DNA of 64,000 nt from Tubulanus polymorphus (taxonomy: Eukaryota; Animalia; Nemertea), in NCBI RefSeq assembly GCF_964204645.1, contig NC_134027.1:12494485-12558484 (forward strand), given 5' to 3'. The translations under genes were made by a program, and so were the position numbers. The notes under the pieces were generated by a model, which was not told the origin of the DNA, made no database searches, and saw nothing but the letters and a program-made list of their open reading frames with translations. Positions 10,308 to 48,850 of this stretch are shown here, one piece after another; position 1 is the first letter of the stretch, and each line of letters starts with the position of its first letter.

Positions 10308-13300
10308 GTAAGTATCCCTGCGCTGTTATTATGTCAGAGCTCTTCGCCGGGCACAATAACTTTCACTACCCGGAGTCACATAATCACTACAGCCATCCTG
10401 GCGTGCCTGTCCATCCACTCCTCTGTCGTATAATGTATTATTGACAAGCTTCATATGTTCAGTTATCAAATCACGTTTTATACTGTATGTAACTTTACTA
10501 TATTGTTACATCCCATTTCCTTTGCCAGAGATGCCACGCTACTGTCTGAGCCAGAAATGTATTCAGCATTCTGCTGTGCTTGTGAAAAATGTAGCTTCAG
10601 TCATAATGTGTCATATACATGTTCGATATTTTGTTTATTCATTATCATAACATAATTATGATCATTATTGTGTCAAGATTTATACTTACGTAAATCGGCA
10701 CTCAATATCAAGTTACTCCAACTTAATAATCTGTGTTGCATTGAAATAAAGAAATCCTACACTTAATGTTAAAGCTATGTTGTAAGACTCATTGTCCTGG
10801 CTGTTAAGTGCATACACCCATCATCACATGCGCTACGAAGATTCTGCAAGATCAAAAGTTAATTGATATTCAAAACTTTCTGATATTTTAAGTGTGGGGT
10901 TTCTTTATGCAGCTCATTAATACTCTCTGATAAATACCGAAGAAGGTTTTTATCGATAGAACAAGAAAATGACATCCCAAAATGACAAGAGTATTGATAG
11001 GCTGCCATTTCTTAGACAAGTTGGTAGCAGTTCAACCTTGTGGCAAATGTTGCTAGTTACGTATATCTATTCCTATATACTATTTCATTTATCATTTATG
11101 TATAGTTGTCATATATTGAAAGCCATTATCAGCATAAAAAGTAGAAAATCCATATGTAATTATAGGTTAATGATGGGACAGAAATTTCAATATTTCAGGT
11201 GATATGTCATTTCTCCAACCTAGATTCTTGAATTTATATTCTTGTTTTACTAAAACAGGTATCGTTCTTCGACCAATTCATATCAACGAAACAGAAGTTG
11301 AGGAGCAGCAGATAATGGTGTTTCAAATAAATCAAAAACTTAAGTTCAGAAGTAAAGTTCACTTGACCTAAGACTATAAATGTCATTTGGCATTTTTTTT
11401 TCCTCTCATCCAAAACTGATGTACTTTGAAAGTCTTTTCCACTTGACTAAACAATTCTGATAAGTATCAACCGATTAACTAATTAATGTCTCCTCAAGCC
11501 CTACTTAGGTCACCCCTAACAACCAAAAGCAACTGGATATTGGGTGAAAGGCGACCATTTTCAGTAACCAATTAGTCACCAGTCGCGGTGTCCTGAGCAG
11601 TCGATCGACGGCCAGTGACCAAAACAATCACCATTGGCTTTGAGTGGTGCATGGTCAGGGCCGCCAATAATTTTGCCATTGATGATTTATTCTGAAGGCT
11701 GAACAGTGTTTTATTAAAAATCATTGTGAAATATTTTGCGATCTTTAAATGAAGACGTTTTGGATTTCATCGGATTTATGCTTAACTATCAAATGACTAT
11801 GATAATATTTTCTATCTCATCATTTTCTATCTAATATGAATATATAATCTATCTTTTAATCTAACACCGGATGCAATAATATTGGACGTAAAAATTAGAT
11901 TTGTGCAGGATAACTATGGTCCCAAATAGAGCCTTCAAAATGCATCCATTAATAGAAAAAACTTCTGGGGGAACCTCACACCCTCTGAAAAATTTGCCTC
12001 TTGCACTGGGTATTAGCCGCCTGGGCCAATGACAACTTGGTCAGGTGTGCTTCTGGCAGCCCTGATTTTCTACTTGATACTGCGACTAGCATGCTTGCTT
12101 GGTATCATGGTCGACCTCAGTGCTTTTGCATCTAAGCTCAGACGATTGTTTGAAATGGCAGTGTTGGTTCAGATCCCGCGTGTGCGCTCATTTTGAATAC
12201 AGATTTTCTATGCAGTTTTATCGTGATATCATTGTGTATTTAATGGTTTTTACTGTCATATATTCATGCTACTTACATGAAGCCTAGTTGCAACTTAAAT
12301 CAGTTCCACAGACTTAAGTATTTTTCCGGTTAGGACACTGGAGTGGAAGGTGTTGCCAGGTTTTATTTTTCAATTGAGATTTTTTGCTAATTACTGCAGT
12401 TGGTGGTAAAAGCTGTGACCTGAGCTTAACACAGCATTTCAACCAATGAATGAGGGCCAAAGGTTGCTTCTAATATTGAGTTGTAGCAACCTGAGTCCTC
12501 TCCTTGATTTGTAACACCTGGTTCTGTTATGTCGTAGTCCAATTGCATTTGGGCTTGAGTCTGAATTATGAGATTTTTTTGTCAGAATTCAGTGTCTGCA
12601 GTGGCTACAATTATGATAATTTCATCATAGAATTTTCAGTATTTAGGGTATTCTCTTTATTCTAGGTGTAAATTATCGTAATGATTTCAACATTGATAAT
12701 TATGCTCATATTCTGTAGTATAAAAAGTAGGTTATTTCTAAAGTATAACGATTATACACTATATGTTAGGACCACAATTTTGTAGAGCACAGCCTATTTG
12801 CAGATGCATGAAAACGTATAGAACCATTCAATTCTTCGGTGAAATGATTTTCCAAAGAGTTGTAATAAATATCTGATTTGAAGGGACAAATTTGCTCTGG
12901 CATAGCGTGCATAAGTTTATTAGATGTTACATGTCTTTCTTTGGGTGTCTAAATTAGCCAGAGAGATTTTCCCCTTCGCCATTATCTCGATCGATGTATG
13001 TTTTGTATGAATACAAAAAAGGATTGATCGGGAAAAAATGATGAAAACGTGGATGTTTCATTGTGAGATTGTTCCCTCTCAATGTATGCACACATTTCAC
13101 ATACACACTCGTCACAAATTCTAGTCACATGTCATATAGGCTATAACGAGTTGTCGGAACATATATGACTGTCAAAGAATCGAGTACGGAAAACTAAGAA
13201 AACGTGATTTGATGATTATGTACCGGTATTGGAAAGACACATGTAATGGCTTAACCTTTTGGTCAGTTGATACCTCATTATTTCAACCTACATTCTCTAT

Positions 13301-14121
13301 TCAATCTGAAAAAAAAACATTCACGTACATTGTCATTCATATTGCCAATACAGGTTTCATGTTTCAATTTTCTTAGCAGGAAATAGCCAAAATATTTTTC
13401 TATGTGTGATAAGTACAGTATTTTGAAGATATGTTAGACATCCTATAAGGGCTACCAAATTTCACATATCAAACATATTCTCACATATTCATATTTATTA
13501 TGTATTGCAAATCTTAGCAAAGTATACACTATTCATACATCATAAGTTATGGCAGAGCATGTGACTTTATGCCTTCATATTATAGCGGCCTTAACAAATA
13601 TGATAAAAGATTACAAAAAATTTCAAAATTACACACTAAACCATTAGGAGTTTTAATTGAATATTTTGATTAACTTTCTTTACCCGATACAAGATATTCT
13701 TGTCAGTCATTTAGCTGCTTTAATTTGCTCAATGCGCATTTTCTGTAAGCAGTTGTAAAAAATTAGCATTAAGTTTTTTGTAAGCAGTTGTGCATATTGT
13801 GGTTTACTATTATTGGCTGTTGTACATAGCTATGAATGTATCAATTACTGAAGGCTTTGATATAGGGAAAAATCTTTTTAATAATCTGGGTTGAAATGCG
13901 GGTAGATATGTGTTTATGTATGTATTCCCAACAATTTAAAAACCCAAGATGAATAACATTTCAAACATATTATAGAATCATCATTGGTCTTATCTCTCGG
14001 ACTTTTTTGCATTTCCTTCGTCGGGTTTTGTGCTTACATGCCAAGCTTACTCTTAATCTCGAAGAGCTACTCAAATTATGCTTGAAAAATTCTTCATATT
14101 TTCTATTTGCTGTCTTTGCAG

Positions 14122-14292
14122 AAAGCACGCCTCGCCCGTATACGCATGGCTAAAAATGCCAGTGGTCAAGCATTCCTGGCCAGCAAGAAAAAGATGGAGG
14201 AAGCAGCTAGAACTGGCAATCCATTGGATGGTGATAATGACATATTCTCGGCACAGCATCATCATTTACTATCGTGTCTCGAAAAAACAACA
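14122..14292 (+). CDS. Shal: Shal/Kv4 voltage-gated potassium channel, C-terminal exon
   Basis: Encodes KARLARIRMAKNASGQAFL...FSAQHHHLLSCLEKTT, the conserved Kv4 proximal C-terminus and di-leucine motif. tttgcag acceptor, gtaagt donor, phase 0/0. Confidence 0.95.
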
Positions 14293-14362
14293 GTAAGTTT
14301 TCTTATGATGCTGCTGCAATGAGAGTTATCTCTTACCCCGGTACAACTGTGTGCAGTCATAA

Positions 14363-14804
14363 GGCTCATTTTCACGACCGGTTTCCAGCTAGTTTTTTTC
14401 CTGCTACGTGAAAAGATGTTTGGTAGCATGTTATTTCACGTAGCAGGTTCCAGGCAGCAATTTCCAGTGATCTGAAAAAACCCTGATCAACAACATACGT
14501 GAATGTTCATCCAGACCACCAAGTTTGAATGCCAGCAGCACATGTTTTCACCAGTACCAGTGGTTTCTTACTGCAGGGACAAAAAAGATACGTATAGGTG
14601 GACATTTTTGGGGCAGAGCAGGAAAGCGTGTGGCAAGCATTTTCATGAGTGGTTTCCAGCCGGCAATCTCCTCCTGAAAAATCCAGCAAAATTTTGTCCT
14701 GCTACCGCATTTTCCTGCTTGGGGCCCGTTTTTCGGTGTTTTTATAAGCGATTCCTAGTGGCAACAGCAATAAGCGAGCTGAAAACGGTTCATGAAAACC
14801 AGCC
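14363..14804. mobile_element. Harbinger-like MITE
   Basis: Imperfect ~28-bp TIRs GGCTCATTTTCACGACCGGTTTCCAGCT / AGCTGAAAACGGTTCATGAAAACCAGCC. Preceded by TAA. Confidence 0.65.
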
Positions 14805-14893
14805 TTTAGTGTTGTCACGGCGATGAGTCTCAATTTAATTTTATACCACATCGGGAAAAGCATTGAATTTAAAACATATCCAAGGAGGCATGA

Positions 14894-15268
14894 GCCACGT
14901 TCACACTATCACTGGTTTGTTCTTATTGTGCTCTACCAGGAACGGACCAATTCAGCCTGGATAAATCGATGTTGCGCATTCACACTTGTTTTTAAATCAG
15001 CTATTCTTAATTGGTCCAGCTAGGCGCAACACTGATAGACAGGCAATTAAACCAAAGTTTCTTAAACAGAAGAATAGCACAATCTTGAATTTAGAATGGA
15101 CCTGGATTAGTCTTCTTGGTCCTGGGTTGGTTTTTTTTTGGTCAGCATGAATTGGTCTGTCAATGGAATCAAACTATTTTGAAAAGACTTTTTGCTCATG
15201 TGAAAATTTCATCTGTTTAGGAATGGAATCAATTTAGAACAATCTAAAGTACGTAGTGTAGGCATGGC
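14894..15268. mobile_element. Degenerate Harbinger-like MITE related to family A
   Basis: Termini GCCACGTTCACACTA / TAGTGTAGGCATGGC with GGACCAATT-type subterminal repeats. Confidence 0.5.
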
Positions 15269-17182
15269 TACACATCTTGGGGCTTGTTTTAACCCAATCT
15301 AACTTTACCCCTGTCAACTACGGATCAATGATTAACCCCGGGCTGGTTTTATCCAAGGGAGGAACTGAATTGCAGAGGAATTGAACTCCAAGGTTTCTAT
15401 TATGAGTTGTGGTTATAACAGGTCTATAAAACTGGATTCTTCTAGAAATATTTCATAAGTAGATGATAAACAGATCTGATAAGGTGATTAGAGATGCTCA
15501 GAGACATTGCTATGATGTCATCATCTATTCATTAGCATGACAAAACAATGTAGGTGGCGCCATGTTACGGGCCGCAAAAGCCATTTTTCAGCATTATGGT
15601 ATGGGGAACGATCTTGAATTTGATTTCCGGAAATATTATAGCTAGGTGCTGGCAACACTGATAATAGTATATTTAATTGTATTTTATCACGATGAGGTTC
15701 ATTCCCATCTATAAATCAAAAGCTATGATCACGCAAGCATTTCTTGCAGGCCAATTTGACCGGGGCTAAATCGTCTCCGTGGGATCACGGCTATAATACC
15801 AGAGTAATATAAAACCAGCTTATAATCAAGTTGAGACGATCATGAATTATCACAAAAAATCTGACTACTTGGTATCTAGAATATGCATTTCAAAAACCAC
15901 CTCTAAGGTGCTGTTATTTGATTTTGTACAACAAATTATTTGGAACCTAACAAATATGATAATCGGAAAATCCCCTGAAATATTACGGAAGGCGCAACTC
16001 AATGTTTACAAGGTTGTAATTTCATACAATTTTAACATTTTCTTCATCAAATCTCACACATTTTGTGATTTGATTTATTTTAAGTTTTGTGAGTTTGCTA
16101 CTCTTAAATTCTCTATCACTCGATCTAATGATATCTTACTTGTATAGTATAGTATAGTAGTATCTATTTACTTGCCATCGAATAATCTTATTCCAAGAGT
16201 TAAAAAACTCTAGTGATATTTTATTCATCAAGGTTTTCAATCATATCATATTTGATTTTGGTGTGATATATTATAAATGATTTATTTTCATATTTCTATC
16301 CGAAAAAATCACTCTCTTGTGCATCTTATTCTTCTAATCCTTAAACACAAAACATGCAGAAATTCTGAAAATTCCGGTGAAAGAGCTAGTTACAGTACCT
16401 GTATCCTATTTCAAAATATCAAAGCCAAGTATTGTGTAGACATTGATTTATCCCTTCTTTTACCACCAGATGATGAAAAATATTCTAGTAAATCAAAATA
16501 GATTACCCATTGTTAAATGACATAACAATCCTGATGTGATCGAAAAAGTTTTACTCGAAATTCATATTTTCACGCTGTGAAACTGCTGGTGGTTGATAGC
16601 AGGGAGCCTCCCATTTTATCCTATTTCAACTTTATTACTTTGCCAGTTATTTCCTATGCTATGATATAACTGATCATGACCCACAAGCATGGTATTTGTA
16701 AAGAAATATTTTAAAGCCCTCTGTATTAACTTGTTAAATAAACCAATTTTTATGATTGAATGTTGTGGCGGTCTTTGTCAACACTTATGACAAGGATGTA
16801 ATAATGAAGTTTATTTCCATTTAAGACATTTCTGTCTAAGCAGAACATAGAATAGATTTGCTTCCTAGTTTAAATTTAGAAATATTGTACTGGAATGAAC
16901 TAATCAACAAATTCAGAAGAGTTTTTTCTTCAGTCCACAATTCTTCTTTAACAATAGGATTATGGCGAACCTTGGTTGCCTTATTAACAAAATACAAAAT
17001 GAATCCATTTTACTCTCATGCAAAGGAAATTGGCACAGTTTTTAAGGATAATGAAAACTGTATGGCCACCATTTTCATGTTTCATTATGGAATTCTTCTT
17101 ATGAGTATCAGTAATGCTGACAGCGCATTTGGCTGATTTCAATTTAACTGATTGGCAAAAGTTTATATTGTATCAATTTCAG

Positions 17183-17206
17183 GAATTACCATCGTGCGGT
17201 CCGAAG
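17183..17206 (+). CDS. Candidate 24-nt cassette microexon of Shal/Kv4 (ELPSCGPK)
   Basis: TTTCAG|G acceptor and AAG|GTTAGT donor. Eight sense codons, phase 0/0, at the CLEKTT/DRDF junction. Confidence 0.55.
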
Positions 17207-17442
17207 GTTAGTAAACAAATATTTTTATTCAACAGCATGTGAAAGCACACCTGGGACTACCTACCAGAAAATGATATCATTGTATTTTGCTGCTTTCAAT
17301 ATTCACCTTATTCTTTATTTACCAAACCCCCTCCGAAAACATATCATTTTGATTTCATCTTCAGCATTCAGTTTATGCTTCTTAGAAGGATGCAAAGTAC
17401 TCATGTATTAGTTGTTTTGTAGACAAATTATTAACTTAATGC

Positions 17443-17445
<3 letters not shown>

Positions 17446-17481
<36 letters not shown>

Positions 17482-17547
17482 CGTGCGCGCGCGCGCGCGC
17501 GCGCGCGCGCGTGTGTATACATATATATATATATATATTATACACAC
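17446..17547. repeat. Compound (TG)n(CG)n(TA)n microsatellite
   Basis: About 100 bp of nearly uninterrupted alternating purine-pyrimidine sequence. Confidence 0.95.
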
Positions 17548-18338
17548 ACTGGCTTATGTCGACAAGCAACGCGACGCCTACCGACGCAACTGGGTTTATC
17601 GCCTATTAGCGGCCTACGAGAGGCCGCCAGTTGCTGCTCTATCGGTTCGACATAAGCCGGCTTGCGACGGCAACCCGACGCCTACCGACTCGTCGCAAGC
17701 CCTATCTGGCTAGTTGCCCATGTTCTACTCTGGCCTACGGTATGCGGACAGATGCTTTCGATCGCAACCGACATAAGCTCATCTGCGACGCGAAAGAACT
17801 GAGCGCAGGGGTTCCAGCCAATAGGACACCGCATATACATAGTACAAATTATCACCGCTAGTTAGCGTCATTCGTAATTAGTCATAAACTTTCAAATTCA
17901 AGTAGTTCAAAACGTAAAGCAAACCTTCAGCACGGCAGAGGACTGGACCGAAGATCTAGAAACTAAATTGGTAGAATTATGGTGTAAGCGGCCATCTTCC
18001 TATAATGTCGCTAGCACGTTGTATTCAAAACAGGATCAGAAAGATCAAATGTCTTAAAGAAATAGCTTTTCTGATAGAAATATATTTCCCAATAATTCAA
18101 AATAATTCAAATTCATTCTCAAAATGCTTATCACGTGACCATTTGAGCCGTTGCAGTTGCTAGAAATCGCAAATGATATAAGCAGGGAAGCAACTGGGAG
18201 GAAATCGTATCCCGCTAGTCGGCTTCAGTTGCTGCGAATCGGAGCGCAGTCGACATAAGCTGGGCTGCGATCGCGGTTGCTCTCAGTTGCGTCGGTAGGA
18301 GTCGGTAGGCGTTGCGTTGCTTGTCGACATAAGCCAGT
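17548..18338 (+). mobile_element. Harbinger-like non-autonomous element with MADF relic (family B)
   Basis: 38-bp TIRs ACTGGCTTATGTCGACAAGCAACGC(G/A)ACGCCTACCGAC with 1 mismatch. Internal CGACATAAGC repeats. MADF-like peptide at 17932-18067. Confidence 0.85.
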
Positions 18339-19337
18339 CTTTAAATGACCAAAATGGTCAATGTATAACTTTTATAAGCATGTTCTTTATTTTCTAACAA
18401 TTTTGAATAAGTTATAACCTTCATACCCATTATCCATTCAAAATTTAAAGAGATTTCTTGAAAAAAACTGTGCACCAGCTAAGGTAGCTTAAAAGAGTGA
18501 AGTGGCTTGAAAATTTGTTTTTACCTTTAGCGAATTGTTTATGTCAGGGCTTGATATAATATGCTTTCACCTAACCATTGAAAAATGAGTATACAATAAT
18601 GTTTGTATACCTTCCAAGTGGAGAATGTCTGTCACAACTACAATGATAATGCAATAGCCTTAATGCTCCTTTGCTAATATAAATGTATCCATGACTCCTG
18701 CAGGTCTTCATTGTTGCTTGTCTTCCCGTTCACATCTATATATTTATTATTATGTGTAATTGTTGTACAAGTGCTTGTATTCACCCAGAAGGCAGGACAG
18801 TTCAACCTCTGCCAATAATTGCACATTTCTGCTATTGTTTAACTGAATGAAAGAAATGGAAATTCACCTTTCTATTGTTGAAACCCCTCCTTCCTCCTAT
18901 ACCGTTATTTTAGACAAAATCGATAGTAATACATTTTGTTTCATCCCAATCAGAACCTGTAGATTTAACAGATACAATTTTTGTATGCTAGCATTGAAGC
19001 TTACCTAAACCTACAGTCTCTCTGCATCATCGTAAAGTTGTGTCACATCGTTTTATGACCTACACAGCTGTCGGTGTGGTAGTCCCTGGTCGTGATTTCA
19101 GACGTGCTGATTAGTCGAACATGTATGTGTATATACTCATGTTTGTCACAATATACTAAATCTTCCCACCCTGAGCAGTAGATTAATTCCTTCTCCTATT
19201 CCAGATGTTAGAAATAAGTATCATTTATATGATGTATGTATAATCCATATAACTATATAGACATATCAGTAAAAATAGTGGTGGTGGAGGAGTTCAGTCT
19301 ACAACTTCTGTACCCATGAGATATAGACAAGATTTAA

Positions 19338-19974
19338 GACACATTCACACTATCGCTAGTTAAGAAATATCGCCCGTTCTAAATGGGTCCGTACTTGGAA
19401 TGTGCCAAATTTGGAATGGGCTAAATCAGAGTACTCCTTTGCACATACATTGCTCAATTGGCTACAGATAGTTATCACTGCCTGCTAGATATCGCCATGT
19501 GTATGTTACCAAAAAATTTTTAACTAAATGATAGATTTATGAGTTTGTGGCTGTTATTTATGAAAAAAATTTTGATGACTGCAGTTATCATGTATCTTCA
19601 CACATCTATCTATTGTTAATTCTAGGAAATTTTCAAAACAATTGAAACGGATGCGGTACTCAGCGAGCAACATATGCAAGACTAAGACAATCTGTTATTC
19701 CTTCTTTTTAGGCAATATAGAAATCGTATTGATACTGCAGAATATGGTTTAGAATGGACCTGAAACCAGTTCCACAAAAACACACAAACAGATTTAGCCC
19801 ATTCCAAAATTTAGAACTGACCTGGAGCAGGCTTTTACGTCGCTCCAAATTGGAATGGTTTAAAGTGGAACAGACCAATTTGGACTGGAATTTTCACTAG
19901 TGTGAATGCATGGTCCATTCGAAAATGGAACTGGCCAAATTAGGACCATTTAGATATTGTAGTGTGATCGCTGC
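19338..19974. mobile_element. Harbinger-like MITE related to family A
   Basis: TAA|GACACATTCACACTA ... TAGTGTGATCGCTGC. Shares TCTAAATGGGTCCGTACTTGG with 3859-4565. Confidence 0.65.
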
Positions 19975-22739
19975 TTTATACATTAAACTTTCACCACATT
20001 ATGCTAGACTAGTTAACAACTCTTTGAATTGAATTGATTCTTCAAAGAAACCATCAGCTACCAGTAGAAAAATCTGACAAGAAAACAAGAATAACATTTT
20101 TTGAGTTTTTGAGTGATTATAACAGTTTACAGATACTATCAATACAATAAAGTGAATAAAAGCGTTACATGACGTTCTCTTTTAATCGAATCCATGGGTA
20201 CATTAGTTTTAAGTAGGCAGTACACTTTCAGCCATTATTCTAAAGCATAAGATGATTCATCCGTGTACAAATACAAAATATTGCAAGTGTAGAAGTTCTT
20301 TAACCCTTTCTTGACTGAGGCCATATTTAGGTTTTTTGTGTGGCCCCTTTTCTTCATTGAATCATAAATGTTTTAACTGAAATACCAACTGTTATTGTTG
20401 GTAACGGGCCGGACCTTACTGTCAGTGAAGATCAGGAAAGGGTCCAAGTACTAGATTATCCTATTAGTATTTCCTAGATTATCCTATGAGTATTATCAAC
20501 TTTTCGTTAAACTAATAAAGCCTATTATCATGGGCTATTCCTGTACCTGTTAGCACAAATCAACTTTGAATTGCACACGGCTGCTATCAACATCTTTTAC
20601 ATCTATTGATCATTATGGAGTAAGTATTATAATCTGTGTTAAGAACAGAGAATATGTTATACATTTTTTTCGTACCTCCCGTCACTGTTACAACGGAAAA
20701 TAACTCGATTTTGAGCAACTTATATACAGATGATTTCCTGGTATGGTATCAGTGATATACTAAAGGCTGGCATGTCACTGATTTGATTGAGAGGACCTGT
20801 GGAGTTCCGGCAACTACCTGGAACTACTGGCCTTTACTCCTTTTAGGCAGGTATATCACATCATACATAAGTGCCCGTATAACTCCTACCAACACAACTC
20901 CATTCAGTTCACATAAGTCTATACAGTGTAACGTGATTTTAGTACAGTCACATGCAGAATTCACATGGATTGGCAGGTTCAAATGGCTGGCGGTAAAAAT
21001 CCATCATTCTCCAAAGTAGGTAGAAATCCCCCACCTTTTTTCTTGAAGTGCAATACTTGAGATAAAATCTTAATGCTCAATTTAATCATTTTAATATATC
21101 CAATTTAATCATATTTTACTGTATGGTATAACAAAAGAATATGAGCATACTAATTATTGTACAATTGAATTATAAAATACTAAGAATTGACAGTTCATTA
21201 TTACTGAATTAATGGTTATCGCACTCTTCAAACATAAGTTAAAAAGAGTTCATCACACAGTTGAAATATATTACAAAGCTCGAATTTAAGATATTCCAAA
21301 TCAAAATTGATATTCCAAGTACAAATATATTGCAATTTGATTGCGAATTAGAATTAGATGGAGAGATTTGATAACCATGCCACATTAATCTTTTTCTGTG
21401 TCACATAATTCTCTATCTAGGCTGTGCAAAAGCATACTGTTTTCCAAAATTCTGACAAGTCACTGCAGACTAGCCGACTGACAGTGAATTGCTGCCAATC
21501 TGGTTGCTGAATATCTAAGATACTGAGGAATCTTGTCATCTGTGACCATTTGTCCACAGACAAAAGTTACATCAATTGTGAATTTGTCGCTTGCAATTGG
21601 CAACAAACTGCAGGAAATCACGTAGTGTGCGGCTTACCAGCTACTTCCAGGTTACCTCTGTCCACCTCTTTTTCTGCTACGCCAGCAAAGAGAACATAAG
21701 GGTTTCCATGGGCGGTTTCCTGTTAGCAACTTGCTGCTGCTGCAGGAAACTGCTTACTGAAACTCGCCAAAGCTGGCCCAGGAAATTGCTCTTGAAACCA
21801 GCCTTTGAGGTTGTAGTGACCAGAACTTGGCTTAAGCTTGAGTAAGTACTATAGATTAGGTATAGATGTTTCTTTTGAACTGCCAAGTGAACAGCGCGAT
21901 AAATATGCATCCACTGACTGTCCTTAGATGGTATTTTTGTCATTTTAGCATTTACAACCGGCATTAATCATCACCGCTTAACAACGCAGAATCAGTTGTA
22001 TTTGACTTACTTGACTTTCATAAAGTTTTGTCCATCAATTTCACAGCAGATCCACTCATATTCAGTATTGCCTGCCATTTGCATACCGCCGTATATGTTC
22101 AATGATATCCGAAACATTGAGTGAAATAGATATTTCTCAAAGAAAAAGATTATCTGGAAATTGATTGAATTCTGAAGAAATGAATGATATGTTGTTCGGG
22201 AATCAATGAACAGATTTGTCAAAATCATTTTCAATGAAGGCAGTTGCAGTTAGTCAATTCAAATTTATAGTGGAGCCCTTCAACTATGAAAATATAATGC
22301 TAGGCTGAACTAGCTGTAAGCTGTACACTAAGCTAGATGGCCAGATTTTAAAATTGAACTGAATGGATAGGAAGCATAGATAGAATGTTTCGAACTGCTT
22401 ATTAGGAAAAATTTCAAAATTTTTAGCTTTAAATTGGAAAATAGAGCTCTATAAAGATAAGGGTTGCGTTGTTTTGTCCAGATTACTAATCTATGTTGTA
22501 TGTTTACTTATACTCTACTGTTAGATATGATTTTGTTGAAGACAAATTTACAAATCTTATTGCAGCATGTTGTTTCAATGTATTTCATATCAAAAAGCTA
22601 AAATCACAGATGTATTTATTTCATTTTCTCCTTATATTAAGTCATTCTTAAAACTATAGTGGCTAATAATTATTGTGCTAATGCATTGTGTCTGTCCATA
22701 GACAAATCTACTTATTTAGGGGAAATACTTCACTAGATT

Positions 22740-23580
22740 GACATCATATGCATGTATCTACCCTAGACACATCTGAAACCCAAAAACTGGGCCACTCAGA
22801 TTCAAGATGGCCGACAGGCAGCCATTGTACTTTATAGCCATCGGCACTATGCAAATTTTTGAAGTCTTCAAGGGAAATTTTAACGATGCTTGTATTAATT
22901 GTCTTTATGTGTCATATACATTTATGTGTATATTTAATTCCCATGATCTCGTCAACCGGACTAAAGATGGCCGTCCCATGACCTTTTTTGTGCCCAAAAA
23001 GGTCATTTTTGGCCTGAAGTCCGAGACCTGTAGCTTGTTAAATGTTTATCATTTTTCATTGAAATTCTTGATGGATTCTTTGGAAGGGATCTTTAGCATC
23101 TCATATATGTTTTTCATCAGTCAATTTCAACACAATTGGCAGAAACCTTAGTCGTCCACTTGCGTAGTTGTGAAAAAGATTTATGTGAGGAAAATATCAT
23201 AATGAAAAATAACAATAATGTTTTGACTTTAATCTTGATATTTGATAATTGCAAGCACTGTTATAGGACACTTCTTACATGGAATTTCCCATTTTTTCTG
23301 TTCTCCCCGCTTGGGTGGGTCAAATATTTGATTATATAGAATGTTTCTATTTGTATTGGTACGTATTCATATTCTGTAACCACAATCCATTGATGATTTG
23401 TAGCTCATGATATGTAATTGATTGTGGTGAGTTTCAAGAGGTCATTGGTTTCTGTATATGTACACCAGGGGGTGTTGAATAGCAGAATAACATGGTATTT
23501 CCATATACATGTACATGTATATTGGTACCCATGTTTTGTAAATGACAAGGTCTATGCTTGTGGTGAGTTTGAAGCTCGCA
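22740..23580 (+). mobile_element. Helentron-associated (HINE-like) repeat, internal fragment
   Basis: CATGTATCTACCCTAGACACATCT, AAGATGGCCG blocks and satellite units match 60771-62010 (reverse complement). Confidence 0.65.
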
Positions 23581-25614
23581 GATCTAATGTATCATGAACC
23601 AAGGCCAACTTATAGGGTAAAACCATGGGAACAAAAAAGATTATTTGGTCTTATGTATGATATTTCATAAGTCAGACTATTTTATCATTTTGTTTGGATG
23701 TTTTACACAAAAATGATACATGCAGTGATTATCTACTATGTACATGTGCTATATACTATTTTTCAACTGCTAAGTCTAAAGAGCTTGACATAAGCGAGCT
23801 AAGTTAATTCTAAATTTCTCCATTGTAAGTCATTTCCTTACGCTTAGGTTTAACAAGAAGAATTATTATGTACATTTATTTATTTAACATTATCTGGCAT
23901 CAAAAACATAAGCTATTTTGGGCTACACTTGATCTTTAAAGCCATGCTCAGACCAACCTAATGACATGACTCAACTGTTGGGGAATATCATAGATTGCAC
24001 TCGAAGGGATCACATGAGGGGCTATGACATCGATGAGCCGATGAGCCGATGTCATAGTGTCGTGACTGAATACAGTACGGTTAGTATTGATGTATTATGT
24101 CCCTGTTGTATTATGAATATGAAGTTGTCACGTGTCGCGTCAGCCATATATAATCTTCATTGTACTAGTTTCATGGTTACATGAACATATCATATCATGT
24201 GAATTCTAAGATTTTGAGATTTTGAGTAGTAATAAACGGAATGCCATATAGTTCGAACGTGTGCTTGTTGAGTTGCCTTTTCGTCTTAAGTCCGTCAACA
24301 CACATAGCCCTTCATGAAACCATTTGATCCATTCTATGGCGCCATTCCAGGATGCAGGATACACAATTTTTTTCACAAAATTACCATATGTCTCTATTCC
24401 ATTGATATTTTCATGTATTATGTGCCCATTATTGCTTGGAATAATAAACATGGAAGTTGACTTTTTCAAATTTTCAATGTGGAAATACCCAAATACGCCT
24501 GAAATAAGGCATTTATTCCAAGAAAAGTCCAATTATAAGTTCAAATTAAATTCGTCATTCCTCATGGCAGCCTTGCTGATTTATCTTTTACTACTGTGAT
24601 TGGCTAAAATAGATGATGGGGTTGGCAGCCCGTTGTAGAAATGTGCACATTGACTACGATGGATGGTCAACCAATTCTGTTGCATTGTAGAAGTAGAACG
24701 TGTTCAATCCCAGCAACACAGTTGCTTATCGTAAACAATGGTCGCACACTGATCGACTAGAATCGGCAATACAAATCGTGTTGATGGCTTGCAGTTATCG
24801 CTGGAAAACCAGTCGGCCACCAGATGAGTTGCGTTGTACGGTCAATCTGAGCCCGGCTTTAGATCCGATGATCAGATCGGATTTTATGTGACCTGAGCTA
24901 GTCTTCACTGAATTTTGAAACTTTGAAATTTTATACTTTGAAAAAATGGCTAGGGTTACAAGGCAATAGTCTAGAAAATTCACTTTATCAAACATAATTC
25001 TATGGTTTATGATCTTTTTCTGTTTCAGCACCTCGTTAATGAAATGATTTGCCAAATCATGTACAAACCTGACCATCAGTGTCATCTTAGATGTGCTCTA
25101 AAGACATTTAAATGATTAATCACTTTTTAGAAAATATTTTCTAACAAGCTTTGCGCTTTGAGAAGAGTAAAGCACTTTTGAATAATGAATTATAGTTACT
25201 ATTATTATTCCTAGGAATGATGTACCAGGTATATGTGAAACTCAAATATTCATTGAACTGTTAAAAAAACTATCACTGACACATTAAGCGTACAATTTTA
25301 AGGAAGGTCACATGAAATTTTCCAAGGCCAAGAGGAAGCACAGTGCCTGAAGTGAATTAACACTTTCCTGACTGTTCTGGTTTTTTGCTTGAGGTTTTCG
25401 TAGCCCAATGTCTTCGTTGAATCATGAATTTTCTACTTCGAAGAAATTACAATCTTCGAGCGCAATACTATCATCGGTTATTTTGGTTAGTATGGCCTCT
25501 TTATTTTGGCCTCTTTGCGTTCTGGAAATGTTGGAGTAGTAGATATTATTTTATTGATCGTCAGCTAATCTGAACAGATGATATGACATAAACTTGCCGC
25601 TGTTATCATTTCAG

Positions 25615-25767
25615 GATCGAGACTTTTTAGAGATGGATTCCGCTTTCAATGGAGCACCTAGTAAACCATCAAACACTCCACCGTTGACTCCTTCTCCATC
25701 CATACAGTCCTTGGAGCAGAGGAAAACTGGATGTTGCGCCAGGCGTTCATCAAATCGAAAATACCTG
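25615..25767 (+). CDS. Shal: Shal/Kv4 penultimate coding exon
   Basis: Encodes DRDFLEMDSAFNGAPSKPSNTPPLTPSPS...TGCCARRSSNRKYL, with the Kv4-type SP-rich segment and CCxRR. tttcag/gtaaag, phase 0/0. Confidence 0.9.
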
Positions 25768-26186
25768 GTAAAGTTTAATACAAAAGTAATTATCCCAGCT
25801 TCTATTTTGTGATTTGCGTATCTTATATCGAGAGCATACGTACTGTACAAATTCATGACACTTCCTTTTTTCTTGGAAAAAAAAACCTTTCCTTTCAACA
25901 AGTGTTACTTCTATCGATTGATAATCAATGAGCGCATCGATGATGAATAATGCTCATCATTGATGAATTGTAAGATGAGTATGAGTATGATTATGTCGAG
26001 CCCATAAAATCAAATACACCAAGGTTCTTCATAGTGAGGTGTATTTCTTTCGGCGGGGGGGGGGGGGAACTTACTGAGTGCCAGTGCGTATAGCTCTTTG
26101 TGCTGTTAATGTGAAAGTGTCTCATTGTATTATATACTGTATTTAAGTTAACTAAAGACACACAGTTGAGTTCTTTTTTTTTGATA

Positions 26187-26400
26187 CAGTAGAGCCCGCT
26201 TAATCCGCATAATTTAGAACTGATATAATCAGGTTTGAAATAGATCCGAATTAGACTTCATATTTTAAATACGATTAATACTAGAGAGTTAATGCATAGA
26301 CGCTACGTATGTTGTTCACTTGGCGTCGTACTGGACATCAAATGGCAGTACACTGACTTTTGCTCGATTAGATCAAAATCTGGATAAGCGAGTTTGACTG
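26187..26400. mobile_element. Tc1/mariner (pogo/Tigger-like) MITE
   Basis: TA|CAGTAGAGCCCGCTTAATCC ... GGATAAGCGAGTTTGACTG|TA. Confidence 0.7.
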
Positions 26401-28131
26401 TAATATATCTGCTTTTTTTGCCTTATGCAATATTCAATAATTTTGCGAAATGCATACTTTTGGTTTAAGATTAGTATATCAAGCTATAGATGCATTACGT
26501 ATTAAAGCCTCATTGCTCTCGATAAAAAAGAACCTTACGATATTAATGGGTGGCCATTCCTGCCAAATGACTGGATTCATTTCTTTATCTCTACTTCGAT
26601 AAAATGTTGAAGTGTATCGTCAAATCAGCATCGTTCATATGTCAAAGTGAAACCAGGAGCCACTTCCACAGTTCTGAGTTAAGATTTGACTCAAGGATTG
26701 AAACTCTGGAAAGGGACCTATTCAAAACTCTTGGGTCGAATTTAACCAAGAACTAAAGAATTTGGTCTTGATGACAATGCCACTGATAGATTTCAGTCCA
26801 GTATTCAATGTCTCGGCTTAAAAGATTGATGTATTGCGGATATACATTTGTAATTCATGGCTTACATAAAACTGCAAGTGTATATCCAAATCGAATAAGA
26901 AAAGAACCCATTTTATGCCTCAATCGCAAACTGTTCTTTTATGTAATTTCAAACATAGAACATATATTCTTGTTTCTATGATTTAGCCTACAATTCACAA
27001 GAACAAAATCTCGGATATGATAATTATTTAGTTGGAACAGATGATATTGTAAGACATGGAGAAAAAAAATCTATACAGGTGTACTAATCCTTTCACATGC
27101 ACAAACACAGCATATCTTTGCAGATAATACTATTGGTAATCGTTTTGAAAAATGATAAGTTGGTTTATAAGTTGGTAAATCAAATATTACATGAGAAATT
27201 GTAGGCCACCATTTGAATAGATCTGCCAACAATGAGTAAGCTTATCACTTTCCCCTAAATTTTCGATGGATAGAAATCAATGCTCGTCATCTTTAACTTT
27301 ATTCTAATTTGCAGAATGATGGAATCGTTTTGTATACATGTTTATCGTTATCCTTCACATGGAAATAATTATTCCATTCAGCATAATGCTCTCCTCTTTC
27401 ACAAAGCTGACAGAGTATGACAAATACTAGCTTTGAATCAATTGATGATGATATGACATTTCAACATTTTCTCAAGACAAAACAAGTCACTTTGAAATGG
27501 AATGGCCGCCCATGGATTTTATGAGCTACCTCAACTGTTACTGACAATTTTTATTCACTTTTGGTACAAACGACATCTCTGCATGTACATTTTCACAGTT
27601 TGAAGTGGAGGTTTTTGATCCTGTTTGATTTGATCTTACTTTTTGGTATGTATGCTCACCCATGTTGATGTGCCCTATTTTTACTATTTAGCCAGGAACT
27701 TGTAAGTGAATGTGACTGAGGCTTACTGGTAGCCATTTTGGTTCTCCCCGTTGCCATTTGTTGTCTAATGTGGCTTCTGTGTTGAAAATCACATTTGAAG
27801 AAAGATTTGTTCAAAGTAATCGATAGCATAAGAGGAAAGCATGATGAAAGTAGGCCTCATACACAAAATTATGGAAATGAACTGAAACACCCGTTGGCTG
27901 TGTATTTTCACTATTTGTTGTTACAAGAATTACTTCGATGAAACTTTCATTATATCTTTGTTAATTTTCACCTTCACTATTTCACAGTTCAGACAAATTC
28001 CTGGTTTGCTTGTATTTTGCATGATGAATGTTTTGACATACTGGAATTTTTGACCCTTTGTTTTTGGTTTCCCTGATTTCAAATTTTGATGATGAAAAGT
28101 TTGAAAAAATGATCCGCTCCAAGATGCAATA

Positions 28132-28720
28132 TGGGATATCGACGAATTCAAGTTCTTGAATAACTCGTTTGATGGCGCTAGTCAGAACCGGAAATTGGAA
28201 CCTAAATCCGCCATGTTTTAGTTCATTTGCAATGAAAATCTCTCGCTTCAAGTTTTCTGACGATGTAAAGACTGGTTGCCAGGTATCACATGGTGGCAGC
28301 ACTTGACAGCCCAATTTCGATTGTTGGTTCGAGTCCTAGTACTTTTCATATTTCTATTATGAATCTACGAGCGTAGACCTTATAAAATAAATTTTATTTC
28401 ATAATATTATTTCAATTTTATTTCATAATATTATTTCATATTTATCAGTGTAGCCTGCAATAAATTCACCTTAGAGTCTTGAACTCAACAACAAAGTGAT
28501 GACACCCGGCACCAGTCTTTATTCAACACATTGTCAGGATATCACACTTAAGGATTACGCGTGACGATGTATAGTAAGTAAAATATCGTTAACTAAAAAC
28601 TTGAAGCGAGAGATTTTTATTGCAAATGAACTAGAACATGGCGGATCTAGGTTCCAATTTCCGGTTCTGACTAGCGCCATCAAACGAGTAATTCCAGAAC
28701 TTAAATTTGTCGATATCCTG
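28132..28720. mobile_element. Foldback MITE with ~125-bp TIRs and TA flanks
   Basis: 28132-28257 is the reverse complement of about 28596-28720. TA on both sides. Confidence 0.8.
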
Positions 28721-29590
28721 TATTAATAGGCCTATGATGCAACATATCTTGATAAATTTCCATCATTGAATGAATGAATGAATGAATGAATTTGTTTTCT
28801 CAAATATGTGAACATGGGCATAAAAATTTGTTACTATCATTGATGAAAAATGTTTAAACGATTTGCTGAGTGTGATTGAATTTTTGATTGTATCTTCATC
28901 CTTAATTTCCTTCATGACTACTTAAGTCATTTAATGATAAATTACTGCTTTACTGTCTTTTAGTTACAACCTTGATTTAACGACTTTTTTCAAGTTATTT
29001 TCAATCAGGATCTTCTCCTCCACTCCAGTCTGTATGACCTTTGAAAGAAAATCTCTATAAATAATTATGTATCTTATAATAGTGATTCTAAAGAATCAAT
29101 AGATAAGTCTCAGGGGCGGATCCAGGGACCACTGTCGAGGGTAGCACAACTTATAAAAAGGGCGTTTTGAATTTAAAAAGGGCATTCTGAAATTTTCAAA
29201 ATCTGCTTTTTGCTGCAAATTCCAGGCAATTAAAGTTTTTTTTTGACGCAAAGTGCTTTCTAGGATTTTAACTGCATTGAGATATAGTTTCTAGGAAACA
29301 AAGACAAAATCTTATTTAAGAATTATGTACCTTTTGTTTAAGATTATCTACTTCGTCTTGTAAAAAAGTACCCTTTTCTACTTTGGGCTTGAAAAAAAAT
29401 GAAAAAAGGCACAAGATTTTCGCAATGGTTGCACGCGCCTACGGTGCAACTGTCTGAATCCTGAGTATAGATAAAACTCTGATATCTATAAATGTACGAT
29501 TGGAAATATTCAAATTTGTTAAACAAGAGTTTTGACGCCGAGTCATAATCAAAATCACAACGCTCATTATGATTTTTTTCTTCTTTTTAG

Positions 29591-29863
29591 CCAACACGGA
29601 CTTCTCCGGACTCAGGGCAGGAGGAATTAAATGACATTCAAATAAGAATGCCTACAATGAACAGAACATCACGTTCTAGTCTCAATGCTAACCCGATAAA
29701 TGATAACAATAAATCGAACAATATGACAACGGTAACGACTGCAATTGTCACTATGCCGTCATCGAGTACGAACTCAGATGCAGATTCAACGCAGAGAACT
29801 CCAAGCACGTGCAGTGCATCGCCACAAAATCCACCGAGCATTGTACGTGTATCAACATTATAA
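29591..29863 (+). CDS. Shal: Shal/Kv4 terminal coding exon
   Basis: Strong acceptor ttctttttag. Encodes PTRTSPDSGQEELNDIQIR...TSRSSLNA...VTTAIVTMP...SIVRVSTL*. SRSSLNA, TTAI and the terminal VSTL are Kv4 hallmarks. Confidence 0.93.
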   Translation, partial: PTRTSPDSGQEELNDIQIRMPTMNRTSRSSLNANPINDNNKSNNMTTVTTAIVTMPSSSTNSDADSTQRTPSTCSASPQNPPSIVRVSTL

Positions 29864-32800
29864 CAATAGAATCAAAATAGCAAAAATCGTACAGCAATGC
29901 TGTTTAAAACTACATGCTGTGAAAATGTCCTATGGAAATTGTGTTAATAGTTACAGACATTTTGGAGCTATTTACTCATGAACTAAAAAAAGATGTGAAA
30001 AAACTTCGCCGCCACGGATAGATCTACTTGGATTGCTGTGCATCAACACCTCTGTAATTCCCTGGTAACCATGATGTGATGACAACAATGGTTCAATTGA
30101 CCTTCGCCTACAATTGACCTTCAACCTTGATACAGACGAATGAAATGAATGACAAATGAAAAAGTAATTAGGAATAAAGAGCAGCTACAATTAAGCATAC
30201 CCATGCATTTACCTGTGCCGTACTAGTTTCCAATCATTAATAATATCATAATTATTATCATTGTTATTATCAATATCATTATATGAATATTAAAAATTAG
30301 AGTTTTTGCTCTCCACTCCTTATACACCATTTACTGAAGAATCTCTTTTTCTGAATGTGATTACATTGAGAATGAACATTAAAACTTTTCAAACTTCGGA
30401 GTTTGCGGGAAGTTGATCATTCTTATGTCCTATATAATGCAAGTAGCTGCGTGTTTGGTTTTCTGCGTGGTGGATCTTCTTCGAGGACAAGAATCTATGA
30501 AATTGCGAATCGATGAATGGTTTGAAGACAATCTTGTAAATTATGTCATTCTTGCATCAAATCACCCTGAATCTATATTTATCTCTCATTATATATCCCC
30601 TGTGTGTGATATTTACAAAAAACACTTAGTCTGAGCATATTCCCTATCTAGTGTTAGTTTCTGTGATTCTAAACTTGAGAATTGTTAATCATAAAAGTCC
30701 TTCTCTTGTTAACGTGATATTTTTCGCGGTCTATTTTTATGAGCGTGAAAAGAAATATTCTGTTTTTTATTTCCCTCCAATTAGTGTCTTAATAATTCTA
30801 TGTACCGTATAGTAAGTAAATCATAATAGTTCATGTAAATACTAATTTACATTACCTACCCTGATGCATTCATATGTCTGAATATGTTGACTTTGGTCAA
30901 GTCATTTTTAGATGTATGGCATTTCAAATAGATTAGCAATAATATTGTTCATTTTAAATCTTATCATCTCAATCTCAGCCATAGGACAACTTCGGAGCCC
31001 ACCAAAAAATTACATTTTAGACTATTGTCTGGAAATGAGCTTCCAGAGTTTGTATAATAGATTGCTAAGAAGAAAATTGCCAAGTGCAAGTCAAAAACTA
31101 TTCAGTTTCAATAAGATCATATAAAGAATTATCTTCATATCATGTTTGAGATCGTCTTATTCTTTTCAAATACGTAGAGGCTACTTTGCAGTATACAGTT
31201 TAGGAAGGAACTAATAAAATAGCAAATAATCAAAAAATGTTTGTGTTGCACATACAAATTACTTTGCATTGAAATTTTTGATTTTAGAAAGGTGCTCAAA
31301 CACACATAGGTAATCAAAAATGATAATATCATAATATCAATCATATTATTCTAATGTATTTTAAGTGTTAGAGTTTCCAGGCATTATCAGGGTAACTATC
31401 TAACATTGGCCAGTGGACTTAATATGTATATAAGCCTAAGCTGACAATGGATTATTATTATTATTATGAAAAAGTAAGATACATTTTTTGGGGAAATTAT
31501 AAGCTCCATGTAGTTTTGAATGCTTAACATATATTTTGTTGGCTACATGTATATTATGTTGTTCAATACTGAAGTGAAGGGCTACTTTTTCATGATAGTT
31601 GTCGATTGTGTAAGAATTGTTACATGGTGGTGGTTGACTGGTTCAACAGAACAAAACCCTATCAGTGATGAGGTGTTGTGGACAAAGTTTCATGATATGG
31701 TCCACCAAATTTATAGGGGTTTCAGGCCAAAATATGTCCACCGCAAAAGAATGTTTCTGCAAGCATTCAGCTAAGAAATTCATCTACATTTTGACAATCA
31801 ATTGTTGTTTTTGGATAATTCAAACAAAAAGTTTTTTTAATGATGAAATTCAAACAAGTCCATTATAGGGCACTTTTTCAATGATGATAGCCAGGAGCTA
31901 CTGCGCATATTCACAGAAAAGTCATCTTTCTTAAGAATCTTAAAGATCGTACAGCATTAAGTTTTGGCAGTTATGAATTTTGTTTCATATGAGTGACCCC
32001 TTCATATAGTAACAAAACTGTTCATGTTCTCATCAACAATTCCTTACATGCATATTTGAGATTCTGACAATTCTTAGGAGACTGTGATATCCAAATCTAT
32101 TCTAGTGTATTTATATTTTGAATGTGGTATAATTAATTCTATGTATCAATATGCAATTGTAGAGCTAAGCCTTTATATCTGTGAAAGAATGGTCAGAGTA
32201 ATAGATACTTTGAAATATATCAAACACGAGAAAACAGCAATATGCCCGATTTTCACCACAGAGGACAATTCACATTAACCTCAAACGAATGTTCAAAAAT
32301 ATGAAAAACTATTGTGCATGCGAATTTATTCAATCAAACTTCGTTAGAATTTTGAATTCCTAGAATAAGTTTATAGTTCCTGGAATAGGGTGTATCATTT
32401 CTTCTAGCAGTCTATACTATAAGGTACCGGTACTTACACTATACTTGTACATGATCATGAACTAGAAAAACACCCTGGCATTGTCATTTCACACTGCTAT
32501 ATCCAACTTGTGTTTTATCCTATTCTATGAAAGTGTGTGCGTTTGTTGAAAAATAAGAGCAACTGAATTGAGTGTGCAACAGGTGGTGTGTGACCCTAGT
32601 CATAAATATTTATAAATATTTGAATTATTCTAGTCATGTGCGTTTTTATCAATTACTTTATATATTTCTATATATGTACATTCTCTTATTATGAGAAGTG
32701 GAAGCTTGAATATATGAATGTATATTATGTAAATGCTCGAGTTGGAAACAAGCGATGTGTTACGCTTTCTCTTACAAAATATCTGGGTACGGGCTAAAAG

Positions 32801-39133: not shown

Positions 39134-39421
39134 AAGTTTCAAGTAAATTTGTGATGGGATATTTGTGTTACTAGCAGATTATTGATTCGTAGTTATGTTG
39201 CTGCCTATGGTAAAAATAGCACTGCTGCAGTTTCCAGTCCGTAGTCCCCTTTGATTGGGGAATGGAAAAAGAATACACATAAAAATACACGCGCTTGCTC
39301 GTGGAAAAGCCATTAAATAATTTTAGAATCTTTTGCAATTTACTTAAGGAATTTGTAGATTCCGCTTGGTTAGTTGCAACACGCGGTCGGTGATTTAATG
39401 TAAGCATTAAGACTAATAACG

Positions 39422-45790: not shown

Positions 45791-45990
45791 TTTGATAGCA
45801 GGATGAAACAATACGTATAATATATTCTTTATTTCACATAAAAACACAAAGAAGATATATTGGAAATAGATTGGCACTGCGCTATTTTAATTAGCATCGT
45901 GAGAGATGACACCTCCCATTTTGAGATACAGTAGGCCTACCTACCGGCATTCTTTATCATTACATTCTAGCAATTTCTTTTCTTTTTCAG

Positions 45991-48597: not shown

Positions 48598-48850
48598 TAT
48601 ATGAAACTGGGGCCTAGCCGGTAGATTCTTGATTCTTAATTTTGAGTAAGTTGCAACTGTTTAGTTTGTGCCATCCCTCTAAATTACAGTCGGTAAGAAT
48701 TCAAAGTGTGTATATAACTATTTATTCAGCAGAGATGTGTTTAATACATAAACTCCATACAGTAAACACAAAACATTTTCTTAATTTTGGAATGCGTTGT
48801 AGTTGAAGCCATCTGTCACAGGTCTTACCTTCCAGGGTTCATGGTTCTAA

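What the first reader, a model, noticed from the sequence alone, without database searches (positions are those of the whole stretch)
17183..17206. In-frame 24-nt microexon candidate in Shal/Kv4 at the same junction as the vertebrate Kv4.3L insert
Seen: inside the 11-kb intron between ...HHHLLSCLEKTT and DRDF... lies TTTCAG|GAA TTA CCA TCG TGC GGT CCG AAG|GTTAGT. It has near-consensus splice sites, is stop-free and is phase 0 like the host intron. A TTAAC branch-like site lies upstream and a GCATG (RBFOX-type) motif about 29 nt downstream. Known: vertebrate Kv4.3 has a long isoform with a 19-aa insert right after CLEKTT, next to the di-leucine dendritic-targeting motif. Inference: an unrelated 8-aa insert (ELPSCGPK) at the same junction would mean convergent or ancient alternative splicing of this trafficking module. 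Together with the 9-nt and 6-nt candidates it suggests a microexon program that diversifies the Kv4 tail.
Basis: partly seen in the sequence, partly recalled or inferred. Interest (0 to 1): 0.8.

Follow-up and report, generated by a model that had tools for sequence, protein, structure and literature searches.

The report
Spliced microexon in Kv4 channel tail
A 24-base exon is spliced into the Shal/Kv4 potassium-channel message of a probable ribbon worm at the same junction as the unrelated human Kv4.3L insert, and it likely represents one of several independent recruitments of small exons there, which would alter how the helper subunit KChIP controls the channel.

Summary
The exon is real. 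Sequence alone was weak: a strict pattern gave 1 hit in the intron against 0.27 expected. But a contig of public run X2 carries all 24 nt, spliced between exon 14122-14292 and the exon starting at 25615, while DNA run X1 crosses the site unbroken. The junction is the Kv4.3L one, after residue 487. It is an ancient phase-0 intron (GT follows the motif in 45 of 50 loci). Database models from amphioxus, sea stars, mussels, apple snail and Owenia carry 10-25-residue inserts at the same point, unrelated to each other across lineages or to ELPSCGPK. The nearest relative, Lineus, shows no insert in 4 of 4 named isoforms. So the origin is likely convergent, not ancient. The intron lies inside the segment that KChIP1 clamps (Kv4.2 S472-D495), so altered KChIP modulation is likelier than trafficking. 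Not shown: skipping (alternative splicing), neural specificity, any function. The 'microexon program' is unsupported: the two X2 contigs spanning these introns leave no room for 6- or 9-nt exons, and the eMIC UGC motif is absent.

The parts
14122..14292 (+). Shal/Kv4 coding exon (57 codons) ending in the di-leucine/KChIP helix HHHLLSCLEKTT; phase-0 donor follows
   Evidence: Pfam DUF3399 E=3.6e-7; laid by X2 contig
14293..17182 (+). intron upstream of the microexon (GT...TTTCAG)
   Evidence: junction 14292>17183 read in X2 contig
17117..17152 (+). branch-point candidates (CTGAC at -66, CTGAT at -50, TTAAC at -39, CTGAT at -35); which one is used is unknown; no UGC within 60 nt of the acceptor
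   Evidence: such motifs occur in 24% of 30-nt windows of the intron
17183..17206 (+). 24-nt in-frame microexon, ELPSCGPK
   Evidence: spliced in X2 contig; present in DNA run X1 contig 15632-17435
17235..17239 (+). GCATG (RBFOX core 5-mer, lacks the 5' U); role untested
   Evidence: 12 copies in the intron, in 10% of 100-nt windows
17207..25614 (+). intron downstream of the microexon (GTTAGT...TTTCAG)
   Evidence: junction 17206>25615 in X2 contig
25615..25785 (+). next coding exon (DRDF...RKYLVKFNTK); donor at 25786 is used in X2; a second possible donor at 25768 matches a Lineus isoform lacking VKFNTK
29591..29863 (+). last coding exon (PTRTSPDS...VSTL stop), joined directly to 25785 in an X2 contig

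Best explanation
17183-17206 is a real 24-nt exon spliced into this Shal/Kv4 mRNA; it likely arose in this lineage inside an ancient phase-0 intron, is probably a cassette exon, and is predicted to change KChIP modulation by inserting ELPSCGPK into the C-terminal segment that KChIP clamps. Shown: the exon is spliced in one public run; the intron position is conserved; other lineages have unrelated inserts there in database gene models. Inferred: (1) independent origin; (2) skipping in some tissues; (3) the mechanism. In Kv4.2 the segment S472-D495 fits a crevice of KChIP1, the intron falls between T489 and N490, and F493 after the junction packs with H479/L482 and KChIP1 H84. Here DRDFLE aligns to N490-D495, so 8 Pro/Gly-rich residues would push the F493 equivalent away from the helix. 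Predicted result: gating without KChIP changes little, while KChIP's current boost and faster recovery from inactivation are weakened, as for Kv4.3L and the H491A/F493A/V494A mutant.
For: Spliced contig with both junctions; DNA run X1 unbroken over 25450-26000 with no loose end. GT directly follows the motif in 45 of 50 metagenome loci; the other 5 are spliced cDNAs without insert. Of 446 stored proteins, 400 have the motif: 236 join directly, 11 have an insert of 10-35 aa before the next exon, none of 8 aa. The inserts are in Branchiostoma floridae (10 aa), Asterias, Acanthaster and Patiria (22-23), Mytilus (14), Pomacea (25), Owenia (23) and one unnamed protein (35). Isoforms with and without the insert exist in B. 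floridae, the three sea stars, M. edulis and Pomacea. In 36 pairwise comparisons only within-lineage pairs scored high (84 and 41); cross-lineage scores were 6-22. Lineus, the top-scoring relative for all three exons, has no insert in 4 of 4 named isoforms. KChIP contacts and mutant results: PMC8566240 section 6. Kv4.3L impairs KChIP2b augmentation up to 8-fold, and a free 19-mer peptide partly mimics it: PMC5296356 passages.
Against: Only the inclusion form was seen, in one run of one sample; its kind is unrecorded and it is judged RNA-derived from its spliced contigs. The contig is unbroken across both junctions, which fits inclusion being the main form there, so the exon could be constitutive. 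No functional test; no KChIP sequence of this organism was examined. The insert has no S/T-x-K/R site like Kv4.3L T504 (by eye). Most lineages sampled lack an insert (flies, crustaceans, chelicerates, oysters, scallops, abalone, cephalopods, Lingula, hemichordates). Other tail introns also vary by splicing (Lineus, Limulus, hemichordates), so recurrence may reflect a generally plastic tail. The other inserts are gene models whose RNA support I did not see. Window versus Mytilus insert share CxxK (0 of 300 shuffles, P=0.022; 1 of 8 comparisons), a weak hint of shared origin. Lineus was checked only at protein level, not in its intron.
Confidence: 0.5

Rival explanations
1. The exon is real but constitutive or nearly neutral: a lineage-specific exonisation tolerated as a loop next to the helix, with no regulated switch.
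For: Only inclusion seen; the X2 contig runs unbroken over both junctions. No homologous insert among 400 motif-bearing proteins. Regulatory motifs at chance level. Other tail junctions also vary.
Against: Inserts at this junction occur alongside insert-free isoforms in six named species. The junction lies inside a structured, mutation-sensitive segment. The donor GTTAGT is off consensus.
Confidence: 0.22
2. One reading: a neural microexon, under eMIC or RBFOX control, that retunes di-leucine-dependent dendritic targeting as part of a microexon program.
For: The exon lies 7 residues after the di-leucine, where fly Shal isoforms also diverge (PMC11728854 passages; numbering checked). The helix is both a targeting motif and a KChIP site. 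The mouse Kcnd3 57-nt exon responds to RBFOX2 (10.1101/649715 passages). Fly eMIC exons are enriched in ion channels (PMC8797185 passages).
Against: The di-leucine motif itself is left intact. No UGC within 60 nt of the acceptor, an AG at -23, no CUAAY, against the eMIC code in PMC8797185. GCATG lacks the 5' U and is common. The two fly Shal events in that paper's table S2 (550 and 153 nt) are classed ASE, not eMIC. The two X2 contigs leave no room for 6- or 9-nt exons. No tissue data.
Confidence: 0.15
3. The insert is an ancient bilaterian cassette exon, homologous to the Kv4.3L exon and the other inserts, diverged beyond recognition.
For: Same intron in all lineages. Weak CxxK match to the Mytilus insert (P=0.022).
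Against: Lengths of 8, 10, 14, 19, 22-23 and 25 aa. No strong cross-lineage similarity, although within-lineage pairs stay clearly alike. No dipeptide shared with the Kv4.3L peptide printed in PMC5296356 (by eye). The exon is reported as unique to Kv4.3 among vertebrate Kv4s. Distribution is patchy.
Confidence: 0.06
4. The exon arose by copying a short piece of the gene's own first exon: its peptide resembles the S1-S2 loop (Lineus residues 214-221, 5 of 8 identical). This concerns origin and is compatible with the best explanation.
For: Ungapped BLOSUM62 score 29 against Lineus Shal; P=0.0007 against 1500 random stop-free 24-mers of the intron and P=0.003 against 1500 permutations. Best match at the same loop in most other Shal proteins tested.
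Against: tblastn of residues 1-425 against the intron gives only E=4.3 here, no better than other spots. The resemblance was noticed in a scan, not predicted. This animal's first exon is not in the window. The loop is extracellular and the insert cytoplasmic, so no shared function is evident.
Confidence: 0.1
5. Artefact: assembly chimera, splicing noise or a retrocopy.
For: One contig, one sample; the run's kind is not on record.
Against: Exact GT-AG boundaries at both ends, in frame, depth 14.6, no mismatches in the 22 letters read. The DNA run shows no joined form over 25450-26000. A retrocopy would still need a spliced mRNA.
Confidence: 0.04

Closest known systems
Vertebrate KCND3 57-nt exon (Kv4.3L, residues 488-506)
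   Same: Same intron, phase 0, in-frame insert right after CLEKTT, inside the KChIP-binding C-terminal segment.
   Different: 8 vs 19 residues; no sequence similarity; no T504-like PKC site; alternative splicing, RBFOX2 control and KChIP effects are shown for Kv4.3L but not here.
Database isoforms of invertebrate Shal with inserts at this junction (Branchiostoma 10 aa, sea stars 22-23 aa, Mytilus 14 aa, Pomacea 25 aa, Owenia 23 aa)
   Same: Same junction, in frame; most have insert-free sister isoforms.
   Different: No significant similarity to ELPSCGPK after allowing for several comparisons; they are gene models, not functionally studied in the papers I found.
Drosophila Shal splice isoforms
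   Same: They diverge about seven residues after the di-leucine (PMC11728854), i.e. at T489, this junction.
   Different: They differ by alternative 3' ends, not by a short insert; no insert among the fly proteins listed.
Neural microexons of the Srrm234/eMIC (SRRM3/4) program
   Same: Short, frame-preserving exon in an ion-channel gene; programs assembled independently in different phyla (PMC8797185).
   Different: UGC near the 3' splice site, long AG exclusion zone and CUAAY are not present; neural specificity untested.

Membership tests
Microexon (length class) | Very short exon (3-27 nt; cut-off recalled, not from a call) spliced into mRNA with canonical sites | tested here: met
   24 nt, AG|...|GT, both junctions in X2 contig
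Kv4.3L-type cassette exon | Lies in the phase-0 intron after CLEKTT | tested here: met
Kv4.3L-type cassette exon | Sequence homology to the 19-residue insert, with the T504 PKC site | tested here: not met
   No shared dipeptide and no S/T-x-K/R, by eye against the peptide printed in PMC5296356
Kv4.3L-type cassette exon | Alternatively spliced (both forms exist) | tested here: inconclusive
   Only inclusion among the 3 X2 contigs laid; contigs drop rare variants
Kv4.3L-type cassette exon | Changes KChIP/KCNE modulation | not testable with these tools
   Needs electrophysiology; position inferred from PMC8566240
eMIC/SRRM3-4-dependent neural microexon | UGC close to the 3' splice site, long AG exclusion zone, strong CUAAY branch point | tested here: not met
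   Nearest TGC at -68, AG at -23, no CTAAY against the code in PMC8797185; that code is an enrichment, not a rule
eMIC/SRRM3-4-dependent neural microexon | Neuron-specific inclusion lost on regulator knockdown | not testable with these tools
   No tissue-resolved or raw RNA reads were offered
RBFOX-enhanced exon | (U)GCAUG in the downstream intron, conserved and bound | tested here: inconclusive
   GCATG at +29 without the 5' U; in 10% of 100-nt windows; no orthologous intron available
Shal/Kv4 gene (host) | Kv4 C-terminal motif and best match to Shal proteins | tested here: met
   DUF3399; all named hits are Shal/KCND or hypothetical, 47 hits of 200 candidates; pore and T1 exons lie outside the window

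The most novel reading that the evidence does not exclude
The phase-0 intron that splits the KChIP-clamped segment of Kv4 is a hot spot where at least six lineages (vertebrate Kv4.3, amphioxus, sea stars, mussels, apple snail, this probable nemertean, perhaps Owenia) independently recruited unrelated cassette exons as the same switch: a spacer that uncouples the channel from KChIP. The Kv4.3L effect would then depend on insertion at this point rather than on its sequence, and this 8-residue exon would be the minimal natural version.
Probability: 0.3. Interest if true: 0.72.

Novelty: new variant of a known kind. Interest (0 to 1): 0.5.

Why it matters
Papers describe the insert after residue 487 as unique to Kv4.3 among Kv4 channels; it is remodelled in heart failure and mis-spliced in myotonic dystrophy. 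If unrelated animals keep placing exons at the same point, nature supplies a panel of 8-25-residue inserts to test whether the Kv4.3L phenotype comes from spacing within the KChIP clamp or from its own residues. It would also be a clean case of convergent exon recruitment into an ancient intron. If the exon is constitutive or neutral, it is a small annotation gain for one species.

Tried and rejected
No whole genome is held for this window, so the 5' exons, KChIP and Srrm234 of this animal could not be examined. No RNA holder was listed for 29591-30600; X5, a guessed RNA run, laid only 3 records at repeats; X4 laid nothing on 25450-26000. None of these is evidence. No skip-form contig was seen, which does not show absence; the joint and loose-end tables were cut (64 and 888 rows not shown), those were complete for that stretch. 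Three protein searches, three cluster look-ups (up to 15 members listed per cluster), one representative search (best 150 of 289) and one metagenome pattern scan found no ELPSCGPK-like insert and no second nemertean-like protein spanning the junction. Vertebrate Kv4.3L was not among the stored proteins; the PDB Kv4.3 chains are the short isoform. The idea that 51 unexplained letters in an X2 contig were microexons after the DRDF exon was rejected: they are 25735-25785, an exon extension to the donor at 25786. A larger duplication of exon 1 around the microexon was not supported (E=4.3). Literature: ten searches listed no paper on recurrent inserts at this junction or on nemertean Shal; the library lacks most subscription papers, including older crustacean Shal splicing work (lobster isoforms Shal 1.f/1.g appear as proteins). 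Two look-ups of earlier findings returned nothing.

Full report
Observation. The window holds the last coding exons of a Shal/Kv4 gene on the + strand: 14122-14292 (ending HHHLLSCLEKTT), 25615-25785 (starting DRDF) and 29591-29863. No pore or T1 motif was found in 1-32000, so the 5' part lies outside. For all three exons the best-scoring stored proteins are Lineus longissimus Shal isoforms, so the animal is probably a nemertean (inference). TTAAC is at -39 and GCATG at +29.

Chance. A loose scan gave 20 in-frame candidates in the intron. A strict pattern, chosen after seeing the candidate, gave this one alone, with 0.27 expected and P(>=1)=0.23 (300 resamples). GCATG lies in 10% of 100-nt windows and YTRAY in 24% of 30-nt windows. 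Sequence alone therefore did not establish the exon.

Expression evidence. The run search listed five runs, none on record as RNA. Laying X5, X1, X2 and X3 on 13000-31000 showed an X2 contig (373 nt, depth 14.6) covering 14122-14292 at record 29-199 and 25613-25764 at record 222-373, leaving 24 letters between the two exons. Laying X2, X3, X4 and X1 on 25450-26000 printed them: bases 14285-14292, then 17183-17204, then the AG. Both junctions are GT-AG. X1 crosses the stretch in one unbroken piece with no loose end and may be the window's source; X3 gave two unspliced 151-nt pieces; X4 none. X2 also joins 25785 to 29591, so I treat it as RNA-derived (inference). This is one run of one sample. 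No contig of the skip form was among the 3 X2 contigs laid, and contigs drop rare forms, so alternative splicing is neither shown nor excluded.

The junction. The Kv4.3 exon begins after residue 487 and encodes 488-506 (PMC5296356, passages; also 10.64898/2026.07.03.735752, passages). Counting on the PDB Kv4.3 short isoform puts T487 at the end of CLEKTT. A degenerate scan of metagenome contigs gave 50 loci: GT follows the motif at once in 45, and 5 are spliced cDNAs without insert. By their sequences these include arthropod-like and fish-like Kv4s (my reading; the loci carry no organism names), so the intron is ancient. In Drosophila the di-leucine is at 481-482 and isoforms diverge about seven residues later (PMC11728854, passages), i.e. 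after T489.

Other inserts. Of 446 stored proteins, 400 carry the motif: 236 continue directly into the next exon, 11 have an insert of 10-35 residues first, 109 read into the intron and 44 do something else, including skipping the next exon. Named inserts: Branchiostoma floridae 10 aa (B. belcheri has a related one in a truncated model), Asterias amurensis, Acanthaster and Patiria 22-23 aa, Mytilus 14 aa, Pomacea 25 aa, Owenia 23 aa (single model). None is 8 aa long. In 36 pairwise local alignments only the two within-lineage pairs scored high; cross-lineage scores were 6-22. The window and Mytilus inserts share CxxK (0 of 300 shuffles; P=0.022 with both shuffled 10,000 times), one of eight comparisons, which I count as a weak hint only. 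Lineus has no insert in 4 of 4 named isoforms, though it varies at the next intron. Most sampled lineages have none. These are database gene models whose RNA support I did not see. The patchy, non-homologous pattern points to repeated independent gains in one old intron (inference). Whether this intron is a true hot spot or the whole tail is plastic was not tested.

Mechanism. In Kv4.2-KChIP1 the C-terminal segment S472-D495 fits a hydrophobic crevice of KChIP1; H479, L482 and F493 pack with KChIP1 H84; helix S473-T489 is also the dendritic targeting motif; and KChIP1 no longer speeds recovery of the H491A/F493A/V494A mutant (PMC8566240, section 6 read). By my count on the alignment the intron falls between T489 and N490, and the window's DRDFLE matches N490-D495. 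An insert here separates the helix from the F493 equivalent. Kv4.3L shows up to 8-fold lower KChIP2b augmentation and slower inactivation than Kv4.3S, and its insert lowers palmitoylation of downstream cysteines. I therefore predict that ELPSCGPK weakens or alters KChIP modulation while leaving the bare channel nearly unchanged. This is inference by position; no step of it was tested on this channel. The insert lacks an S/T-x-K/R site, so the PKC branch of Kv4.3L biology is not expected.

Regulation. The eMIC code (UGC near the acceptor, long AG exclusion zone, CUAAY; PMC8797185, passages) is not met: nearest TGC at -68, an AG at -23. In that paper's supplement the two fly Shal events are classed ASE (one file searched by word). 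The mouse Kcnd3 exon responds to RBFOX2 (10.1101/649715, passages; its supplements are closed), so shared RBFOX control is possible, but the single AGCATG here is at chance level.

Oddity. The peptide resembles the channel's own S1-S2 loop (5 of 8 identical to Lineus 214-221; P=0.0007 and 0.003 against two nulls), but the match does not stand out in a search of the whole intron (E=4.3). It is left unexplained.

Verdict. Observation confirmed and upgraded from candidate to spliced exon; interpretation partly supported. It works, by position, like the Kv4.3L exon but is not a member of that family (no homology). Ten literature searches listed no account of recurrent inserts at this junction; that library is incomplete. 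Novelty: new variant of a known kind. Interest 0.5; 0.72 if the convergent KChIP-switch reading (probability about 0.3) holds.

Noticed in passing
window 25735-25764 and 32438-~32892, minus strand: An X2 contig (485 nt, depth 6.5) joins 25764 to 32438. The skipped part is a GT-AG intron on the minus strand (donor GTAAGT at 32437, pyrimidine-rich acceptor ending CAG at 25765), so a spliced antisense RNA likely overlaps the Shal coding exon. No ATG frame above 30 aa in the joined sequence. Strand is inferred from the splice sites.
   Followed up: partly
window 25768 and 25786: Two donors 18 nt apart; the distal one (adding VKFNTK) is used in X2. Lineus has isoforms with and without the same six residues, so this alternative donor looks conserved.
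   Followed up: partly
window 17183-17206: The microexon peptide resembles the S1-S2 loop of Shal itself (P about 0.001-0.003; not significant at intron scale).
   Followed up: partly
window 25615-25785 orthologue in molluscs: Abalone, oyster, mussel, scallop and Gigantopelta models include isoforms that skip this whole exon, removing the F493-equivalent KChIP contact and the double cysteine: a second way to alter the same segment.
   Followed up: no
window 27696-27701: 6-nt in-frame candidate (EL) with CAG acceptor and GTAAGT donor; absent from the one X2 contig spanning this intron.
   Followed up: partly
window 17600-18400, 22600-23500, 26654-26693, 28000-29200: High-copy interspersed repeats inside the Shal introns (summed depth up to about 25,000 in X1); 28100-28340 and 28560-28720 look like inverted copies by eye.
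   Followed up: no
window 39404-40552 (+): Intronless rhodopsin-family GPCR open frame (7tm_1 E=3e-8).
   Followed up: no
window 42433-43799 (+): Broken retroelement: reverse transcriptase fragment (RVT_1 E=1.7e-9) followed by frames that look like a GIY-YIG nuclease by eye, Penelope-like (recalled label).
   Followed up: no
window 45971-55530 (+): Multi-exon gene with EGF repeats and a probable transmembrane tail, NAGPA-like by eye (recalled label).
   Followed up: no
window 59389-60770 (-): ALG10/DIE2 glucosyltransferase gene (E=1.6e-86).
   Followed up: no
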